A DNA stretch of 64,000 nucleotides from an uncultured Actinomycetota bacterium (GTDB taxonomy: Bacteria; Actinomycetota; Actinomycetes; Propionibacteriales; Nocardioidaceae), in NCBI GenBank assembly GCA_963786795.1, contig CAWBAQ010000016.1, positions 70,230 through 134,229 of the forward strand, written 5' to 3'. A program made the translations under genes and the position numbers. The notes beneath the pieces are model-generated. The model saw only the letters and a list, made by a program, of their open reading frames with translations, searched no databases and was not told the DNA's origin. Below, piece after piece: positions 29,460-37,521 of the stretch (positions within the stretch are counted from its first letter, which is position 1; each line of letters opens with the position of its first letter).

Positions 29460-29618
29460 ATGACCGTCGTCCTGCTGCTGTCCCTCACCGCCGTCCTGTG
29501 CGCCCTGGCGCTCTGGGGAGCCCTGCGGCACCGGGCCACGCTGGCGTGGAGCCGCGAGCTCGAGACCGCGTTCCACACGGACGAGCGGCGCGACCTGCCG
29601 CGCCACCGGCTCGGCTGA
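29460..29618 (+). CDS. Small membrane protein (52 aa)
   Basis: GGAGG RBS and a single hydrophobic N-terminal helix MTVVLLLSLTAVLCALALWGAL. Divergent from mftA. Confidence 0.55.
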   Translation: MTVVLLLSLTAVLCALALWGALRHRATLAWSRELETAFHTDERRDLPRHRLG

Positions 29619-29621
29619 CCC

Positions 29622-30922
29622 TCAGGCGACGTAGGGGATCGTCTGCGGACCCTCCGGCAGCACGCACACCCGCGCGTCCCGGCCGGCCCGGCCCAGGGCC
29701 TCGTGCACGGTCGCCGCGACGTCGTCGGTGTGGCCGAGGTGCGCCGAGGCGAGGTCGGCGGCGGAGAGGTACGACGAGCGCACGACCACGTCCGCGTGGA
29801 CCTGCACCTTCGCCTGCACCTGGACCTGCCACTGGTCCGGGACGGTGCGCTCCCGCGCCGCGATCGACGCGAGCAGCGCCTGCGGCGACGGCTCGGAGGC
29901 GAGCACCTCGCGGTAGGACCCGTGGTCGGGGAACCCGTCGCGGCACTCGGCGGCGCAGACGATCGTGCCGCCCTGCCGGACCACGGTCATCGCCGGCCGA
30001 CATGCCCTTCACGGCCTGGTAGAGGTTCTGGTCGAGCGGGTAGCCCGCGTTGGTGGTGACCACCACGTCGAACAGCGCGGGCACGGGCTGCATCGCCAGC
30101 CGCTGCGACGAGGCCCGGGCCGCGGCGTGCATGGCGGGGATCGGGCCGCCGAACGCCTCGACGATCCGCTGCTCGCGGTTGAGCACCACGTCGAGCCCGA
30201 AGTCGACCCGGCCGACGGCCTCGACCACCGCCCGGATGTCGTCGTGCACCGGGTTGCCCTCGCACACCGCCCACGTGGCCTGCGGGTCCCCGATCCGCTT
30301 CGCGTCGTGCAGCGTGAGCACCGTCTCCAGCCCCGCGAGACCGGGGGCGACGAGCTTGGGGCCGCCGCTGAACCCGGCGAAGAAGTGCGGCTCGACGAAC
30401 CCGGTCGTGATCCGCACGTCGGCCTCGACCCAGTGCCGGTTGAGGAACACGGGTACGTCGCGACCGTGCCGGCCGAGCCACACCAGGGACGCGTCGTCGC
30501 GGGCGTCGTGGTTGACCACCCGGACCGCGTCGGCGACCTCGTCGCCGAGCATCGCCCGGATCTCCGCCTCGGTGTTCCCGCGGTGCGTGCCGGTCGCGAC
30601 GAGCACCACGACGTCGTCGAGCGCGCACGATGCCCTCGAGCTCGTCGAGCACCGCCGGGATCATCAGGTGCCGGGGCTGGGGGCGGGTGCCGTCGCACAT
30701 CGAGATCGCCACGGTCTGCCCCGGCCGCACGAGCTCCCGCAGCGGCGGCCCCTCCACGGGGTGCCGCAGCGCGTCGCGCAGCAGCCCCGCCTGGTCCTCG
30801 GCCGCCGCGACGTACGTCGGCTCCACGACCGTCGTACGCTCCGCCGGCAGCTCCACGTCGAGGCCGTCCTCGCCGTAGGCCAGTCGGACCGTCACCGTGT
30901 CCGGAGCTTCCCGTCCCGTCAT
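29622..30922 (-). CDS. larA: Nickel-dependent lactate racemase family protein (frameshifted)
   Basis: DGTRP, ATGTHR, EPHFFAGFSGGPKLVAPG, LHDA, GYPLDQNLYQAVKG, AECRDG, DQWQVQ and LPEGPQTIP LarA motifs. Confidence 0.9.
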
Positions 30923-30941: not shown

Positions 30942-31623
30942 TCAGATGACGCCGAGCTTGCTGGCCTCGTAGACCGCCTCCGCCCGGCGGGAGACGCCGA
31001 GCTTGCGCAAGATGTTGCCGACGTGGAACTTCGCGGTGGTCTCGGAGATGTACAGCCGGGCGCCGATGTCGCGGTTGGAGAGGCCCCGGGCCAGCAGGCT
31101 CAGCACCTCGCGCTCGCGGGCGGTCAGCTGCTTGGTCTGCTCGACCGGCGGGGCGTTCAGGCCACGGACCATCGCGGCGGCGCTGCGGGCGTCGAACGCG
31201 CTCTCGCCCCGCGAGACGTCCCGGATGGCCCGGATCAGCGCCGAGGTGTCGACGTCCTTGACGACGTAGCCGCGTGCGCCGGCCCGGATGGCCTGCAGCA
31301 CGAGGTGCTCGTCGAGGAACGTGGTGAGCACCAGGACGCCGACCTCGGGGTACGTCGAGGTCAGCTCCTGGCAGAGCCTCGAGGCCCTCGCTGTCGGAGG
31401 AGGTGGAGAGCTTGAGGTCGAGCAGCACGATCTGCGGGTTCGCGCGGCCGACGACGGCGAGCGCCTCGCTGGCGCTGGACGCCTCGGCGACCACCCGCAG
31501 GTCGTTCTCGCGCTCCAGGATGGAACGCAGGCCCTGTCGGACGATCGCGTGGTCGTCGACCAGCATGATGCCGACGACGTCGCTGCTGCGGGCGCTGTGC
31601 TGGGACGGTGCGAGCGTGGCCAT
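30942..31623 (-). CDS. NarL-type response regulator, MnoR/MadR-like (frameshifted)
   Basis: LVDDHAIVRQGLRSIL...LDLKLS...LTTFLDE...GYVVKDVD...LTAREREVL...SETTAKFHVGNILRKLG. Confidence 0.9.
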
Positions 31624-33067
31624 CAGGCCTCCTCGATCTCGGGGTGTTCGGCCGCTCGGCGGGGACGCCGACCAGCTCGCTGACGAGGGCGGCGGGACGC
31701 GGTGCCAGCGGCAGCGGGACCCGCATCTCGACGCGGACACCGCCGAGCCTGGCCCGGCGGAACGCGAGGCTGCCGCCGAGGTCACCGATCCGGCTGTCCA
31801 TGTTGACCAGCCCTCGGTGCCGGCCGTCGACCATGGTGGCCCTCTCGAGACGCAGCTTGCGGCTCAGGTCCTTGGGGTCACCCTCGCCGTCGTCGGCCAC
31901 CGAGACGGTGATCTGGTCGGGCCGGTAGCGCAGCCGCACGATCGCCCGGCTGGCCTGCGCGTGGGTCGCCACGTTGAACAGCGCCTCCCCCACGGTGCGG
32001 GCGATCTCGTGGTCGGCGTCGTTGGGCAGCCGGACCACGTCACCCTCGACGCGCAGCTGCACCGCGAGGTGCGGCTTGTGCTGGTGGGCGACCTCGTTGA
32101 GCAGCTCGGGCAGCGTGGAGACCGTGTCGCGGCTGCGGATGGTGCAGCGCGTAGATGGCCCGCCGCAGCTGGTCGACGGCGTCCTGCGACAGCTTCTTCG
32201 CGGTGGCCAGGCGGGCCAGGATCGAGGACCCGGGCCGGCCGAGCGCCTCGGCCTCGCCTCGGGCGATCTCGACGGCCATGCCGGCCGACAGGACGTACTG
32301 GGTGACGCTGTCGTGCAGCTCCCGGGCGATCCGGTGCCGCTCCCCGTCGATCAGCTCGCGCTGGTGCGCCAGCAGCAGTCGTTCCTCGACCTGACGGAGC
32401 TCGGCCGTCCGGTCCGCGAGGTTGCGGGCCTGGGCGGTCGCCTCGTCGTACAGGTGCTGCGCCCGACGGTGCAGGGTGAGTCCGGCCTGGTACTGCTCGG
32501 AGGTGTGCAGCGAGACCGCCGCCTGGTTGGCCAGGATGCGCAGCACCGACAGGTCTCCGGGCTCCGGGTCGACCTGCAGACGGTGCTGGGCCACGAGGCT
32601 GCCGACGGTGCGGCCCTCGAGCGTCATCGGCACCCGGATCCAGCCGGAGGGCTCGATCACCGGCCGGGTGTGCCCGGCGCGGATGGACACGGAGCTCGCG
32701 CTTCACCGCCGTGGGGAGGTCGGACTCGTCGACGGTGATCGTCACCGTCGGGGTCGGCGGCCAGGAACCGGGGCCGGGCGCCCTTGAGGTGCCCGTCGGC
32801 GAGCGCCAGGACCGTCCACTCGGCGTTCAGGTGCGCGGCCGCGGCGCGGACCACCTCCTCGAGCAGCCCGCGGGGACCCTCGACGGTGCGGACCAGCGCG
32901 CGGGAGATCGAGTCCATCGCACGGACCGCGTGCTGCATCCGCTCGTCGGAGCGGACGTAGGCGCGGTAGTAGGACGTCTTGCCGGAGCGCACACCGGTCA
33001 GGGTGGCCAGGTCGAGCCGCTGCCGACGCGGGCTCACGCGCGTCCCACCAGGATCGTCAGGAATCAT
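31623..33067 (-). CDS. Soluble GAF-HisKA_3 sensor kinase, MnoS/MadS-like (frameshifted)
   Basis: LTGVRSGKTSYY N-terminus, GAF, ERHRIARELHDSVTQ H-box, EALFNVATHA, VADDGEG. Confidence 0.88.
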
Positions 33068-34284
33068 CACAGGGCGGCCAGGAACAGCTGCTCGACGTCG
33101 CCCGACGAAGCCGGGCGCGGGTTGGTCGTCAGGCACGCGTCGTCGAGCGTGTTGAGGGCGAGCCGCGGGATCGCGCTCTCGTCGACCCCCAGCTCACGCA
33201 GCCCGCGGGGCACCCCGACGTCGTCGGCCAGCTCCCGGACGTGCACGGCGAGCATCTCCGCCGCCTCGCTCGCGGGCACCCCCTCGACCTGGAGCCCTGC
33301 CGCGCGGGCGAGCTCCACGAAGCGCTCGGGGCTCTCCTGGGCGTTGTAGCGGATCACGTGCGGCAGCAGCACACCGTTGACGACCCCGTGCGGGGCATCG
33401 AGGAGCCCGCCGACCTGGTGGCTCATCGCGTGGGTGGCGCCGAGGATGGCGTTGGTGAACGCCAGTCCGGCATTGAGGCTGGCCTGCGCCATCTTGGAGC
33501 GGGCAGCCTCGTCCCGGGGGCGGAGGATCGTGGTGCGCAGGTTGCTGCAGACCAGGCCGACGGCGTTCAGCGCATGGATGTCGGCCAGAGGGTTGTGCGC
33601 CAGAGACACGAACGACTCGACGCCGTGGGTCAAGGCGTCCAGCCCGGTCGCGGCGTTGAGCCACTCGGGCATCGTCATCAGCAACCGCGGGTCGGTGATC
33701 GAGATGTCCGGCACCAGGGCGCGGCCCATGATGGTGATCTTCACCGATCGCTCGGTGTCGGTGACGATGCAGAACTGGGAGACGTCGGCGCCGGTGCCCG
33801 ACGTGCTCGGGATCATCAGCAGCGGCGGGATCGGCTTGGCGACGAGGTCGACGCCTCCGTAGTCCAGGATCCGGCCGCCGTTGCCCGACAGGATCGCGAC
33901 GCCCTTGGCCGCGTCGATGCACGAGCCGCCGCCGAGCGCGACGAGGACGTCGCAGCCCTCCTCGACGTACCGCTCGTGGGCGGCGTGGATCTCGTGGTCC
34001 TTGGGGTTCGGGGTGACGCTGGACCAGACCACCGGGGTGAGCCGCGCCTCGCGGAGATGGCCGAGGAGCTCGTCGCACCAGCCGGCCTCGATGACGCCGG
34101 GATCGGTCACGACCATCGGGCGGCGTGCGCCGAGACGGGCGGCCGCGAAGCCGGCCTCGCCGAGCGATCCGAGCCCGAAGACCACCTCGGGGGCGTGGAA
34201 CTTGACCAGCGGGGGCCACGGGAGCTCGAGGTCGGGCTCGTCGGCGGGCTGGGTCGGTAGGTCAGGTCCCGCGATCGACTGCAC
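33067..34284 (-). CDS. Iron-containing (type III) alcohol dehydrogenase, ErcA/MSMEG_6239-like
   Basis: KFHAPEVVFG, TPNPKD, GGGSCIDAAKG, TGADVSQFC, GLDALTHG, THAMSHQVGG..D.PHG. Stop overlaps the kinase start. Confidence 0.92.
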   Translation of the reverse strand: MQSIAGPDLPTQPADEPDLELPWPPLVKFHAPEVVFGLGSLGEAGFAAARLGARRPMVVTDPGVIEAGWCDELLGHLREARLTPVVWSSVTPNPKDHEIHAAHERYVEEGCDVLVALGGGSCIDAAKGVAILSGNGGRILDYGGVDLVAKPIPPLLMIPSTSGTGADVSQFCIVTDTERSVKITIMGRALVPDISITDPRLLMTMPEWLNAATGLDALTHGVESFVSLAHNPLADIHALNAVGLVCSNLRTTILRPRDEAARSKMAQASLNAGLAFTNAILGATHAMSHQVGGLLDAPHGVVNGVLLPHVIRYNAQESPERFVELARAAGLQVEGVPASEAAEMLAVHVRELADDVGVPRGLRELGVDESAIPRLALNTLDDACLTTNPRPASSGDVEQLFLAAL

Positions 34285-34481
34285 GGCGCCTCCCATCAAG
34301 ACGCCTCCAAACTACACGCGGGTCCTGGGACCGGGAAGCGGACCGTCGGCCGGTCTCGGGCGGATGGCGGCAGGGGCAGGCACCTGACCGGATGGGTAGG
34401 TGCGTCGGTGGTCGCGCGGGGCTTGACTGGGCTTCACCGGACGTATCGACGAAGCCGGGGGCCAGGCCGAGGAGGACATGG

Positions 34482-35597
34482 ATGAAGACCAGAGCAGCAG
34501 TCGTAGTCGAGGCAGGCAAGCCCATCGAGATCGAGGAGCTGGACCTCGACGGGCCGAAGGAGGGCGAGGTCCTCATCCGCTACACCCATGCCGGGCTGTG
34601 CCACTCCGACGTGCACGTCGCGCACGGCGACCTGGAGGCGCGGCTGCCGATGGTGCTGGGCCACGAGGGCGCCGGCATCATCGAGGAGGTCGGACCCGGT
34701 GTCACCCGGGTGAAGGAAGGCGACCACGTGGTCTGCTCCTTCATCCCCAACTGCGGCACGTGTCGCTACTGCGCCAGCGGACAGCAGTCGATCTGCGACA
34801 TGGGCGCCACCATCCTCGAGGGGTACCTGCCCGGCGAGCGGTTCCCGTTCACCGGGCCGCGGGGCGACTACGGCGCGATGTGCATGCTCGGCACGTTCAG
34901 CCAGTACAGCACCATCCACCAGAACTCCGTGGTCAAGGTCGACGACGACCTGCCCCTGGACAAGGCGGTCCTCGTCGGCTGCGGGGTCCCCACCGGCTGG
35001 GGCTCGGCCGTCAACACCGCCAACGTCCGCCCGGGCCAGACCGTCATGGTCTCCGGCATCGGCGGCATCGGCATCAACGCTGTCCAGGGCGCGCGGTACG
35101 CCGGCGCGAAGTACGTCGTCGCCGTCGACCCGCTGGAGAACAAGCGCGAGAAGGCCATGGAGCTCGGCGCCACGCACGCCTTCGCCACGGTCGAGGAGGC
35201 CCAGGAGACGATCACCGACCTCACCCGCGGACAGATGGCGGACTCCGCGATCCTCACCCCCGACCTGATGACGGCGGAGATCGTCGCGGGCGGCTTCAAC
35301 GCCGTCGGCAAGGGCGGCGTCGTGGTGCTGACCGGCCTGAACAAGGTGATGGAGCCCAACATCCAGCTCCCCGGCACCGTGATGACGCTGTACCGCAAGA
35401 CGCTCAAGGGCAGCCTGTTCGGTGACTGCAACCCGACCGTCGACATCCCCCGGATCCTCGGGCTGTACCAGTCCGGTGACCTCAAGCTCGACGAGATCAT
35501 CACCCGGACCTACACGCTGGACCAGGTCCAGGAGGGCTACGACGACCTGCTCGCGGGCAAGAACGTGCGCGGCGTCGTCGTGCACTCGCACAACTGA
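34482..35597 (+). CDS. Zn-dependent NDMA-dependent (nicotinoprotein) alcohol dehydrogenase, mycofactocin-associated type
   Basis: GLCHSD, GHEGAG, structural Zn CGTCRYC..G..SIC, AMCMLGTFS, GCGVPTGWGSA, GIGGIGINAVQGA, GSLFGDCNP..DIP. Confidence 0.9.
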   Translation: MKTRAAVVVEAGKPIEIEELDLDGPKEGEVLIRYTHAGLCHSDVHVAHGDLEARLPMVLGHEGAGIIEEVGPGVTRVKEGDHVVCSFIPNCGTCRYCASGQQSICDMGATILEGYLPGERFPFTGPRGDYGAMCMLGTFSQYSTIHQNSVVKVDDDLPLDKAVLVGCGVPTGWGSAVNTANVRPGQTVMVSGIGGIGINAVQGARYAGAKYVVAVDPLENKREKAMELGATHAFATVEEAQETITDLTRGQMADSAILTPDLMTAEIVAGGFNAVGKGGVVVLTGLNKVMEPNIQLPGTVMTLYRKTLKGSLFGDCNPTVDIPRILGLYQSGDLKLDEIITRTYTLDQVQEGYDDLLAGKNVRGVVVHSHN

Positions 35598-35605
35598 CGT
35601 GCTCG

Positions 35606-36511
35606 TTGGCTGAGGTGCGAGCGGGGCGGGCCTCGAAGCCACTGGTCGTCCTCGACCGGGCCCGCGAGGTGGAGCTGCTCGTCGCCGCTCTCGACGGTGG
35701 CGCGCACGTCCTCCTCGAGGGTCCGCCGGGGACCGGGAAGTCGACGCTGCTCCGCTCGGTGGCGTCCGAGCGGGCAGCGCCCTTCCACCTCGTCGAGGGC
35801 AACGCCGAGCTGACCCCGGCGCGGCTGGTCGGGCACTTCGACCCCGCGCAGGTGCTGGCGCAGGGCTACACCCCCGACGTCTTCGTCGACGGACCCCTGG
35901 TGCAGGCGCTGCGCGAGGGCGGACTGCTGTACGTCGAGGAGATCAACCGGGTCCCCGAGGAGACCCTGAACGTCCTCATCACGGTGATGTCCGAGGCGGA
36001 GCTGACCGTGCCGCGCCTCGGCCTGGTCCGGGCCGAGCCCGGGTTCCGGCTGGTCGCGGCCATGAACCCGTTCGACGCGGTCGGCACGGAACGGATCTCC
36101 TCGGCGATCTACGACCGGACCTGCCGGATCTCGATGGACTACCAGTCCGCGGAGACCGAGTCGGCGATCGTCGCGCTGCGCTCCCCCTCGGACGACGCGT
36201 GGCGGGCGCAGGTCGTCGACCTGGTCCGACGTACCCGCGGCCACGGCGACGTCCGCATCGGCTCGTCGGTGCGCGGGGCGATCGACCTGGTCGCCATCGC
36301 CACCCGGCTGTTCGAGATGCGCGGCGTCCCCGCTGGCGACTGGCACGCGGGGCTCGACGCCGCGCTGGTCTCGCTGTCGGGACGGATCCGGATGCACGAG
36401 TCGGCCGGCCGGCGACCCGAGGAGGTCGTCCGGGAGCTCTACGAGCAGGTCTTCGGCGCGCCGCCGTCGGACCGGCCGGACGGCGAGGGGTCCGACCCGG
36501 GGGAAGCCTGA
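35606..36511 (+). CDS. MoxR-family AAA+ ATPase
   Basis: Walker A GPPGTGKST, VEGNAELTPARLVG.FDP, Walker B YVEEINR, AAMNPFD, IGSSVRGAID. Confidence 0.9.
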   Translation: MAEVRAGRASKPLVVLDRAREVELLVAALDGGAHVLLEGPPGTGKSTLLRSVASERAAPFHLVEGNAELTPARLVGHFDPAQVLAQGYTPDVFVDGPLVQALREGGLLYVEEINRVPEETLNVLITVMSEAELTVPRLGLVRAEPGFRLVAAMNPFDAVGTERISSAIYDRTCRISMDYQSAETESAIVALRSPSDDAWRAQVVDLVRRTRGHGDVRIGSSVRGAIDLVAIATRLFEMRGVPAGDWHAGLDAALVSLSGRIRMHESAGRRPEEVVRELYEQVFGAPPSDRPDGEGSDPGEA

Positions 36512-37446
36512 GCCCGCCTCCTTCACAGCCGGCGGGCCGCCCCCAGCAACGCAGCAACCCCAAGGCCGACGCGGCCCGCAACCGGACCGTCGGCCGGTCG
36601 ACGCTGTCCCGGCACGCCCGGTTCGCGGAGGTCTCCCCCGAGGTGGGGGTGCTCGACGAGCAGGCGCTGGACCGGGCGCTCTCGTCCGACCCGGACGCGA
36701 CGCTGGCGATGGTGGCCGACCTGGTGCACGCCACGGACGAGTCGCTGCGGGCGCAGGCCCGCCGGCTCGCCGCCCGGCTCGTCATCGACCGGTCCCGCTC
36801 GGGACGCCCGACCCGGACCGGTACGGCGCGACCACGGCTCGTCCCGGCCGGGAGCGGCGGGGACCTCGACGTCGACGCCTCGATGGAGGGGATCGTCACC
36901 GCCCGCGGCGAGCGCCGGCCGGCCGACCTCGACGAGCTGACCGCCCGGGACTGGGGCCGCCAGGACCTCGCGGTGTGCCTGCTGGTCGACGCGTCCGGCT
37001 CGATGAGCGGTGAGCGGCTCGCGGTGGCCGCGACGGTCACGGCCGCGTGTGCGCTGCGGGCACCGGCCCAGCACGCCGTACTCGCTTTCGCCGGTGACGT
37101 GCGCACGCTGCGGACCCTGCACGGGCCCGACCCGGCGGCGACCGTCGTGGACCGGGTGCTCGCGCTGCGGGGTCACGGGGTCACCCAGCTCGCCGACGCG
37201 CTGCGGGCGGCGTCGAAGGAGCTCGCGTCGGCGCGGGCCCAGCGACGGGTCGTGGTGCTGCTGTCCGACTGCCGGCACACCGACGAGGACCCGGTCGACG
37301 TGGCCCGGACCGTCCCGGAGCTGGTGGTGCTCGCGCCCCGCGACGACGCGGAGCAGGCCCGGGCCTTCGCGGCGGCGGCGGGCGCCCGGTGCGCCGAGCT
37401 CGACGGCGCCGACAGCGCACCCGCCCTGCTCCGCGACCTCTTGTAA
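36500..37446 (+). CDS. VWA-domain protein (in the -1 frame relative to the AAA+ gene; no clear start)
   Basis: MIDAS DASGSM, G.T.L and LLSDC motifs. The frame is open through the AAA stop; the first GTG after it is at 36643 and lacks a clear RBS. Confidence 0.85.
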
Positions 37447-37521
37447 CGCGGGGTTATGGACGCTCCACCCACGGCACACCGCGTGCTAACCGTCCACAGC
37501 ACCTGCAAAGCAGCGCTCTGC

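What the first reader, a model, noticed from the sequence alone, without database searches (positions are those of the whole stretch)
36485..36540. Candidate programmed -1 ribosomal frameshift joining the mycofactocin-linked AAA+ ATPase to its VWA partner
Seen: the AAA+ gene ends GAC CCG GGG GAA GCC TGA. The VWA frame is exactly -1, is open across this point, and has no good start or RBS of its own. About 45 codons of linker-like sequence (GGSLSPPPSQPAGRPQQ...) precede the first GTG. The junction has three parts: an internal SD-like GAGGGG (36485-36490), an X_XXY_YYZ heptamer C_CCG_GGG followed by GAA (rarer than GAG in this DNA), and a perfect 7-bp GC stem GCCCGCC/GGCGGGC (36512-36537) starting 6-9 nt downstream. 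Known: E. coli dnaX uses SD + slippery site + hairpin, and frameshifted chlD chelatase genes make an AAA-only and an AAA-VWA subunit from one gene. Inference: this locus makes a short ATPase plus a minority ATPase-VWA fusion at a fixed ratio, building a mixed ring that matures or reactivates the nicotinoprotein ADH. I know of no description of this for mycofactocin loci. Caveat: the assembly is indel-rich and the site is a G5 run.
Basis: partly seen in the sequence, partly recalled or inferred. Interest (0 to 1): 0.82.

Follow-up and report, generated by a model that had tools for sequence, protein, structure and literature searches.

The report
Ribosome slip fuses ATPase to adaptor
An ATP-driven motor gene and its partner-domain gene overlap at a slippery sequence and hairpin that are kept across actinobacteria, so ribosomes likely shift back one base here and make both a short motor and a fused motor-adaptor protein, which probably service the neighbouring mycofactocin-type alcohol dehydrogenase.

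Summary
The junction is real. Contigs from five runs in four studies cross it without gaps, and 17 of 17 same-genus orthologs that span it keep the same core.

Of 162 homologous actinobacterial AAA-VWA loci, 121 have VWA in the -1 frame behind a slippery site, usually with a hairpin 5-7 nt downstream. Eighteen are in-frame fusions, 15 of them with G_GGA_AAA and a -1 stop 8-26 nt later (opposite polarity). Thirteen have one in-frame TGA (likely readthrough), nine are plain fusions and one is ambiguous. One family thus appears to make short and long products by three interchangeable recoding routes.

The ATPase is MoxR/NorQ-like, not ChlD or MadB. The upstream gene is usually a TIGR03989 ADH or a TIGR03971 SDR. 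Frameshifting, the product ratio and the client are untested, and plain fusions argue against an obligatory fixed ratio. I found no description in ten paper searches. This scan noted the frameshift and the readthrough before, on other DNA.

The parts
34482..35597 (+). NDMA-dependent (mycofactocin-type) Zn alcohol dehydrogenase, presumed client
   Evidence: TIGR03989 525 bits vs cut-off 440; homolog directly upstream in 90 of 108 type A loci
35606..36511 (+). MoxR/NorQ-like AAA+ ATPase, short product of about 301 aa; start codon uncertain
   Evidence: Pfam AAA_5 92.9 bits vs 22; best bacterial PDB sequence hits NorQ and CbbQ; start region variable among orthologs
36485..36490 (+). Internal SD-like element, ending 8 nt before the slip site
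   Evidence: duplex with this genome's 16S 3' end -7.5 kcal/mol; clade-wide peak of about -8 at 6-8 nt upstream vs about -2 elsewhere
36499..36505 (+).
   Evidence: kept in 17 of 17 same-genus orthologs; 1 in 305,634 background codons
36506..36511 (+). 6-nt spacer holding the 0-frame stop TGA (36509-36511)
   Evidence: sequence; the stop lies 6-81 nt from the site in relatives
36512..36537 (+). Predicted stimulatory hairpin GCCCGCC/GGCGGGC
   Evidence: 98.5% of cells paired in 45 orthologs vs 39-49% for slid controls, 4 cells with a change on both sides
36499..37446 (+). -1 frame: linker, helical region and VWA domain (315 aa); first GTG at 36643; MIDAS D164-x-S166-x-S168 at 36988-37002, T229, D257
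   Evidence: Pfam VWA_2 43.6 bits vs 27; MIDAS residues invariant in 84 orthologs; 59% identical over residues 2-315 to the C-half of natural fusion P0004
26813..29079 (-). Context: mftB, mftC, mftE
   Evidence: TIGR03967, TIGR03962 and TIGR03964 over cut-off
30942..34299 (-). Context: MadR-like regulator and MadS-like kinase (broken pieces) and an ErcA-like Fe-ADH, divergent from the ADH-AAA-VWA unit
   Evidence: NF047785, NF047786 and NF041833 best hits, all below cut-off

Best explanation
The AAA and VWA frames are likely one gene decoded by programmed -1 ribosomal frameshifting at G_GGG_GAA, which would give a short ATPase of about 301 aa and a fused ATPase-VWA protein of about 613 aa. Shown: the site, the -1 geometry, their conservation, and the lack of a conserved VWA start. 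Inferred: the hairpin 6 nt downstream stalls the ribosome and the SD-like element 8 nt upstream biases it backwards. The P-site tRNA-Gly re-pairs GGG to GGG and the A-site tRNA-Glu moves from GAA to GGA with one G-U pair; if the A site is empty, GGA is read as Gly instead. Inferred from NorQ/NorD: the products assemble into a hexameric ring carrying a tethered MIDAS-VWA adaptor that grips and remodels the co-encoded nicotinoprotein dehydrogenase, for example to load or release its tightly bound NAD or its zinc. I put the frameshift at about 0.88 and the dehydrogenase as client at about 0.55.
For: (1) No indel at the junction in contigs of five runs from four studies. (2) 121 of 162 homologous loci have VWA in -1; 117 of these have one of five rare heptamers in the AAA frame (G_GGA_AAA 56, G_GGG_GAA 38, G_GGG_GGA 14, T_TTT_TTC 7, A_AAA_AAA 2) and 4 have A-rich variants. 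(3) The best local hairpin starts 5-7 nt after the heptamer at 99 of 127 non-duplicate sites against 90 of 508 control windows; mean folding energy is lowest, about -16 against -8 to -10, right behind the site. (4) The hairpin tracks the slip site while the AAA stop moves from +6 to +81. (5) The -1 linker has a stop in 0 of 91 loci (the +1 frame in 38 of 91), and 42 of 91 have no ATG/GTG/TTG before the conserved SPEVG motif. Invariant R33 and near-invariant L36, F42, S46 and P47 lie before the first GTG. (6) Natural in-frame fusions of about 600-650 aa exist, up to 70% identical in the AAA part. (7) 15 of 15 in-frame fusions with linker G_GGA_AAA have a -1 stop 8-26 nt later, against 9.5% of control positions. 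(8) Control: 0 of 15 loci of a different AAA family (sub-threshold NF047784 hits) have such a heptamer, and all 14 resolved ones have ATG/GTG within -1 to +18 nt of the stop, with mixed offsets. (9) PRFect (PMC10885494, passages) reports GGGGGAA in about a thousand annotated, mostly untested SEA-PHAGES frameshifts and explains it by G-U pairing.
Against: There is no expression, ribosome or protein evidence. G_GGG_GAA is not a strict X_XXY_YYZ. Covariation in the stem is thin (2 of 6 pairs, 4 cells), kin are not independent, and the heptamer list was drawn up after seeing the loci. The six T_TTT_TTC sites show no hairpin excess over shuffles (mean z about 0). The SD signal is weak in the G_GGA_AAA class (about -4.5). 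Nine loci are plain fusions, and G706, G746 (single-contig, 100% complete) and G830 have no second close ATPase, so the short form is not universally needed. The -1 codon overlapping the stop is CTG in 79 of 106 loci and ATG or GTG in 7, which leaves room for reinitiation. The client is inferred only from gene order.
Confidence: 0.85

Rival explanations
1. Termination-reinitiation: ribosomes stop at TGA and restart at the overlapping CTG (C-TGA), using GGGGG as a ribosome binding site, so that VWA is a separate protein.
For: The overlapping -1 codon is CTG in 79, ATG in 4 (L110, L114, L115, L162) and GTG in 3 of 106 loci. Known MoxR/VWA pairs such as NorQ/NorD are separate proteins (PMC13036017, passages).
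Against: In 20 of 106 loci that codon is GTA, CTA, ATA or TTA. The stop moves while heptamer and hairpin stay fixed (L050, L054). A hairpin 1 nt after the start codon would be expected to hinder initiation (general knowledge). The idea does not explain the same heptamer in in-frame fusions.
Confidence: 0.06
2. RNA polymerase slippage on the G5 run (A4 or T6 in relatives) adds a base to some transcripts and gives the fusion at the mRNA level.
For: All sites are short homopolymer runs, and the protein outcome would be the same.
Against: The runs are only 4-7 nt, are phased to codons in the AAA frame, and have a hairpin 5-7 nt downstream and an anti-SD match upstream, which is ribosome geometry. 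Polymerase slippage usually needs longer A/T runs (recalled).
Confidence: 0.05
3. Assembly artefact or pseudogene: the true gene is a plain fusion and the G run lost a base.
For: The assembly is 62.6% complete and nearby genes are broken. Seven relatives had indels elsewhere in the pair and L098 reads as an in-frame fusion. Plain fusions exist.
Against: Gap-free bridging contigs in four studies, the same offset in single-contig genomes (G190, G231, G359, G468) and RefSeq isolates (L094, L096, L144, L145), and an intact MIDAS.
Confidence: 0.01
4. The frameshift is real but regulatory: it sets or throttles the amount of the fusion, which is the only working form, and the short ATPase is a by-product.
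For: Plain fusions without a short paralog exist, and the same heptamer serves both polarities.
Against: In-frame fusions keep a site whose only effect is to make the short form (15 of 15). G769 carries an AAA-only gene directly before a plain fusion (L295). A TGA clade keeps its stop in 71 of 71 loci.
Confidence: 0.2

Closest known systems
Frameshifted chlD (fs-chlD) of class I chelatases (PMC3711429, passages; PMC9227772, first quarter of the text plus passages; Antonov 2020 not held and not read)
   Same: One gene is read as an AAA-only and an AAA-VWA subunit by mostly -1 frameshifting with a downstream structure; fused homologs exist.
   Different: The protein fails the ChlD models (TIGR02031 41 bits vs 499.55; TIGR02442 40 vs 779). 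The neighbours are nicotinoprotein dehydrogenases. The site here is G-rich, not AT-rich. The family also shows truncating frameshifts and a likely TGA readthrough. JGI labels many of these fusions 'magnesium chelatase subunit D', so some may sit unrecognised in the chlD surveys.
NorQ/NorD and CbbQ/CbbO MoxR AAA+/VWA chaperones (PMC13036017, passages)
   Same: The AlphaFold model of a fused homolog (pLDDT 87.7, disordered linker 300-328) matches NorQ best (Foldseek E 1.5e-18, target TM 0.83). MIDAS is intact. One VWA partner per hexamer would explain a need for spare short subunits.
   Different: There the two parts are separate genes; here VWA is tethered to one ATPase subunit. Identity is about 23%. 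The client differs and is untested.
E. coli dnaX (SD, heptamer and hairpin truncating an AAA+ subunit; arrangement recalled, not read here)
   Same: Three-part signal; the in-frame type B relatives have the same truncating polarity.
   Different: At this locus the shift extends the protein, and the heptamer is G_GGG_GAA rather than A_AAA_AAG.
Actinobacteriophage tail assembly chaperone frameshift, GGGGGAA motif (PMC10885494, passages)
   Same: Same heptamer, -1 direction, short and long products, actinobacterial ribosomes.
   Different: Phage genes, unrelated proteins; most of those annotations are not experimentally tested.
MadB-type ATPase (NCBIfam NF047784) of alcohol dehydrogenase loci
   Same: An AAA ATPase beside a mycofactocin-type dehydrogenase; the window has MadR-, MadS- and ErcA-like neighbours.
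   Different: 54 bits against a cut-off of 475. The MadB-like hits I sampled have ordinary downstream starts and no slip site.

Membership tests
Bacterial -1 PRF cassette (dnaX/IS type) | Strict X_XXY_YYZ heptamer in the 0 frame | tested here: not met
   The conserved site G_GGG_GAA needs a G-U pair in the A site; the strict-form C_CCG_GGG is kept in only 22 of 51. Relatives have strict forms G_GGA_AAA, G_GGG_GGA and T_TTT_TTC.
Bacterial -1 PRF cassette (dnaX/IS type) | 3' stem-loop about 5-9 nt after the site | tested here: met
   6 nt here; 99 of 127 sites at 5-7 nt vs 90 of 508 controls
Bacterial -1 PRF cassette (dnaX/IS type) | Internal SD about 10 nt 5' of the site | tested here: met
   GAGGGG ends 8 nt before the heptamer; clade-wide anti-SD peak; weak in the G_GGA_AAA class
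Bacterial -1 PRF cassette (dnaX/IS type) | Measured frameshift product | not testable with these tools
   no reporter, ribosome profiling or proteome available
fs-chlD chelatase genes | ChlD/BchD or cobaltochelatase family score | tested here: not met
   TIGR02031 41.3 vs 499.55 and TIGR02442 39.9 vs 779.45 for the AAA part; no ChlD hit at E<=1e-12 for the full fusion P0004
fs-chlD chelatase genes | AAA and VWA frames joined by a conserved frameshift, with fused homologs | tested here: met
   (the frameshift itself is inferred)
fs-chlD chelatase genes | Function with a large subunit CobN/ChlH | not tested
   upstream genes are ADH or SDR; cobN was not searched
MoxR-class AAA+/VWA chaperone pairs (NorQD, CbbQO) | AAA_5/MoxR-type ATPase fold | tested here: met
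   PF07728 92.9 vs 22; NorQ and CbbQ top fold matches
MoxR-class AAA+/VWA chaperone pairs (NorQD, CbbQO) | Partner VWA with intact MIDAS (DxSxS, T, D) | tested here: met
   D164, S166, S168, T229 and D257 invariant in 84 sequences
MoxR-class AAA+/VWA chaperone pairs (NorQD, CbbQO) | Hexamer engaging one VWA and remodelling a client | not tested
MadB ATPase (NF047784) | Score over curated cut-off | tested here: not met
   54.1 vs 475
NDMA-dependent ADH TIGR03989 (upstream gene) | Score over curated cut-off | tested here: met
   525.3 vs 440

The most novel reading that the evidence does not exclude
A phylum-wide MoxR-type chaperone family dedicated to mycofactocin-dependent nicotinoproteins builds a mixed ATPase ring from one gene and has repeatedly swapped the means: an extending -1 frameshift (five slippery motifs), a truncating -1 frameshift, programmed UGA readthrough, and gene duplication. 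It would be a chromosomal bacterial family in which frameshifting and readthrough are interchangeable, and a missing maturation or repair factor for enzymes with non-exchangeable NAD.
Probability: 0.5. Interest if true: 0.85.

Novelty: new variant of a known kind. Interest (0 to 1): 0.72.

Why it matters
Conserved recoding in chromosomal bacterial genes is rare. This family is mis-annotated in many actinobacterial genomes as two genes with a truncated VWA protein, or as 'magnesium chelatase D'. It offers a natural series of slip sites in high-GC ribosomes, including the phage-type G_GGG_GAA, and a matched readthrough clade, so interchangeability of recoding routes can be tested on one protein pair. 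It also names a concrete candidate helper for mycofactocin-dependent dehydrogenases.

Tried and rejected
Assembly artefact: rejected. The literal GAGGGG is not conserved; only an anti-SD match at that distance is. Membership of ChlD or MadB: rejected. The only other in-frame G_GGG_GAA in the 849 background ORFs is at the end of an FtsK-like ORF (name from my recognition of the sequence) and has no hairpin. No RNA holder was listed. Runs X6, X14 and X20 had no contig bridging the site. Literature: ten full-text searches listed no paper on recoding in this family; the MoxR/VWA/frameshifting search returned only a halovirus paper (listing only). Two of three supplementary files of PMC3711429 had no hit for AAA_5, VWA, MoxR or three genus names; file 1 could not be searched. 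Antonov 2020 (Mol Biol Evol) was not held, so its fs-chlD list may include members of this family. I found no paper with an experimental test of GGGGGAA in phage L5. The FastTree tree needs at least 7 changes of architecture but has long branches and no root, so I draw no order of events from it.

Full report
OBSERVATION. The window carries, on the + strand, a TIGR03989 alcohol dehydrogenase (34482-35597; 525 bits vs cut-off 440), an AAA_5 ATPase (35606-36511) and a VWA frame in -1 (36499-37446). About 6 kb away on the other strand lie mftB, mftC and mftE, with MadR-, MadS- and ErcA-like genes in between. The genome is an indel-rich, 62.6% complete assembly, so I tested the G run first. Contigs of runs X1, X3, X5, X7 and X11 (four studies) bridge it with no gaps; X6, X14 and X20 had no bridging contig. 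All 17 other same-genus loci that span the junction, from 49 genomes searched, have CGGGGGAAG(C/G)CTGAGCCCGC inside an otherwise variable linker.

WHICH SITE. In 849 long ORFs of this genome (305,634 codons; the AAA ORF itself was not among them), in-frame C_CCG_GGG occurs 50 times, G_GGG_GAG 102 times, G_GGG_GAA once and G_GGA_AAA never. The stem starts 6 nt after G_GGG_GAA and the SD-like element ends 8 nt before it. PRFect (PMC10885494, passages seen) reports GGGGGAA as the only form of its 'fivetwo' motif in about a thousand annotated phage frameshifts and explains the A-site re-pairing by G-U; those annotations are mostly untested.

THE FAMILY. I examined 168 homologous loci from genus, family, class and phylum samples and a GTDB scan. 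Twenty distant hits (L148-L161, L163-L167 at about 22-33% identity, plus repeats of loci already held) were left out. Six of the 168 lacked VWA within the DNA held. Of the other 162, two are duplicates of others, and the classes below include my manual reassignments. Type A, VWA in -1: 121 loci, seven of them read across an indel away from the junction. Of these, 117 have G_GGA_AAA (56), G_GGG_GAA (38), G_GGG_GGA (14), T_TTT_TTC (7) or A_AAA_AAA (2) phased in the AAA frame, and 4 have A-rich variants. Type B, in-frame fusion: 18 loci; 15 keep G_GGA_AAA with a -1 stop 8-26 nt later (control positions 9.5%), and 3 have odd A-rich sites with a nearby -1 stop. Type C, one in-frame TGA: 13 loci. 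Plain fusions without a site: 9. Ambiguous: L098. Named RefSeq isolates include Pseudonocardia spirodelae, Nocardioides ginsengisoli, Blastococcus jejuensis and Pseudonocardia endophytica (type A) and Pseudonocardia sp. NPDC049635 (type B).

SIGNAL STATISTICS. At 127 non-duplicate sites the mean folding energy of 32-nt windows is lowest directly behind the heptamer (about -16 vs -8 to -10 kcal/mol). The best hairpin starts 5-7 nt after the heptamer in 99 of 127 against 90 of 508 control windows. In 45 distinct junctions of this clade the 6-bp core is paired in 98.5% of cells (slid controls 39-49%), with only 4 cells changed on both sides; 47 of 51 loop lengths are multiples of three. The T_TTT_TTC class shows no excess over shuffles. 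The match to this genome's anti-SD peaks 6-8 nt upstream in the G_GGG_GAA and G_GGG_GGA classes (about -8 vs -2) and only weakly in the G_GGA_AAA class. The AAA stop moves between +6 and +81 while the hairpin stays with the heptamer. In 91 type A loci with a recognisable SPEVG motif (18 more lacked it and were not counted) the -1 linker has no stop, and 42 have no start codon before that motif. Conserved residues R33, L36, F42, S46 and P47 precede this window's first GTG. As a control, 15 loci of a different AAA family (sub-threshold NF047784 hits; their downstream ORFs were not confirmed as VWA by a family scan) had no such heptamer, mixed offsets (0: 6, -1: 4, +1: 4, one unresolved) and ordinary starts next to the stop. 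Kin are not independent, and I drew up the heptamer list after seeing the loci.

THE READTHROUGH CLADE. A pattern for the peptide upstream of the type C stop, not including the stop, matched 98 metagenome stretches, of which 80 were returned as loci. After dropping 8 duplicates and 1 truncated locus, 71 of 71 had TGA, never TAA or TAG, always followed by AGA or AGG and by a conserved peptide (R-x-V/I-x-A-D/E-S-P) in the same frame. On the tree this clade groups with the T_TTT_TTC frameshifters and a stop-free locus (L301) in a starred set.

PROTEINS AND NEIGHBOURS. 1,471 longer proteins scored E<=1e-40; most of the best 120 are AAA-VWA fusions of about 600-650 aa, matching the 613 aa predicted here. 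The window's -1 frame aligns over residues 2-315 at 59% with the C-half of fusion P0004. AlphaFold on P0004 with 114 sequences gives two ordered halves joined by a disordered linker at 300-328, where the slip site lies; the top fold matches are NorQ and CbbQ. The MIDAS residues are invariant. A TIGR03989-like ADH lies directly upstream in 90 of 108 type A, 12 of 18 type B and 5 of 8 plain-fusion loci; a mycofactocin-coupled SDR in 9 of 14 type C and 2 of 6 T_TTT_TTC loci (loci in the tree set; 19 of 20 upstream genes picked for a family scan were ADH, SDR or MftE).

MECHANISM. Shown: geometry, conservation, coding continuity, fused homologs and neighbourhood. Inferred: ribosomes pause at the hairpin and a fraction slips back one base on G_GGG_GAA, reads past the TGA and makes the fusion; the rest release the short ATPase. 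In NorQD one VWA partner engages a hexameric ring through its pore (PMC13036017, passages), and active CobST is described the same way (10.64898/2026.10.09.757910, passages). A tethered VWA would then call for spare VWA-less subunits, which fits four routes to both forms: extending shift, truncating shift, TGA readthrough, and an AAA-only gene directly before a plain fusion (G769, L295). Against an obligatory fixed ratio: G706, G746 and G830 have only a plain fusion, and G_GGA_AAA serves both polarities. The client is inferred from gene order alone. These enzymes are proposed to hold a non-exchangeable NAD (PMC6529628, passages), which makes cofactor loading or release a plausible task.

COMPARISON AND NOVELTY. 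It works like fs-chlD but fails the ChlD models, and it is not MadB. The Atkins review (PMC5009743, passages from the first 300,000 characters) discusses chelatase frameshifting, lists G_GGA_AAG among shift-prone heptamers, and notes frameshift/readthrough interchange for retroviral GagPol. Ten paper searches listed nothing on this family. Antonov 2020 and one supplement of PMC3711429 could not be read and may cover some members under the chlD name. This scan's earlier AI notes report the frameshift (e1-4007278) and the readthrough (e1-9891139) on other DNA. I had written down both readings before the look-up and tested them here; the notes are not independent support. Verdict: a real, conserved recoding signal; new variant of a known kind; interest 0.72.

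Noticed in passing
L075-L082, L308-L313, L168-L247: A sister clade has one in-frame TGA between AAA and VWA (71 of 71 non-duplicate metagenome loci), mostly in GGT-TGA-AGA context with a conserved peptide after it: likely programmed readthrough. The base before TGA is T in 60 of 71, which makes an overlapping TTG in the -1 frame; unexplained.
   Followed up: partly
L072-L074, L113, L123, L126, L129-L132, L134, L136, L140, L143, L294: In-frame AAA-VWA fusions keep G_GGA_AAA plus a hairpin with a -1 stop 8-26 nt later: dnaX-like truncating polarity. Type A locus L293 falls inside this clade on the FastTree tree.
   Followed up: yes
L295 (G769:C1:1777000-1783000): An AAA-only gene directly followed by a plain AAA-VWA fusion, behind a TIGR03971 SDR: a two-gene route to the same pair of products.
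   Followed up: partly
L110, L114, L115, L162: GGG GAA is followed at once by TGA, giving an ATGA overlap; these could use frameshifting or coupled reinitiation.
   Followed up: partly
L112 (Leekyejoonella antrihumi): In-frame fusion inside the G_GGG_GAA clade with G_GGG_AAG and what looks by eye like a retained hairpin, but no close short ATPase in the genome.
   Followed up: partly
window 37441-37499: An interspersed repeat of about 60 nt right after the VWA stop; 12 BLAST hits in this genome, some as inverted pairs, and many copies in same-genus genomes.
   Followed up: partly
window 29485-30922 (- strand): A LarA-like nickel-pincer racemase gene (split by an indel; NF033504 below cut-off) sits between the MadR-like gene and mftB.
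   Followed up: no
window 35597-35650: The AAA start is poorly defined (TTG at 35606 with no clear RBS), and the spacer after the ADH stop is longer than in most same-genus orthologs.
   Followed up: partly
G437, G468, G495 and other f36 genomes: Single genomes carry two or three paralogs of the pair with different junction types, for example G_GGG_GGA, G_GGA_AAA and TGA in one genome.
   Followed up: partly
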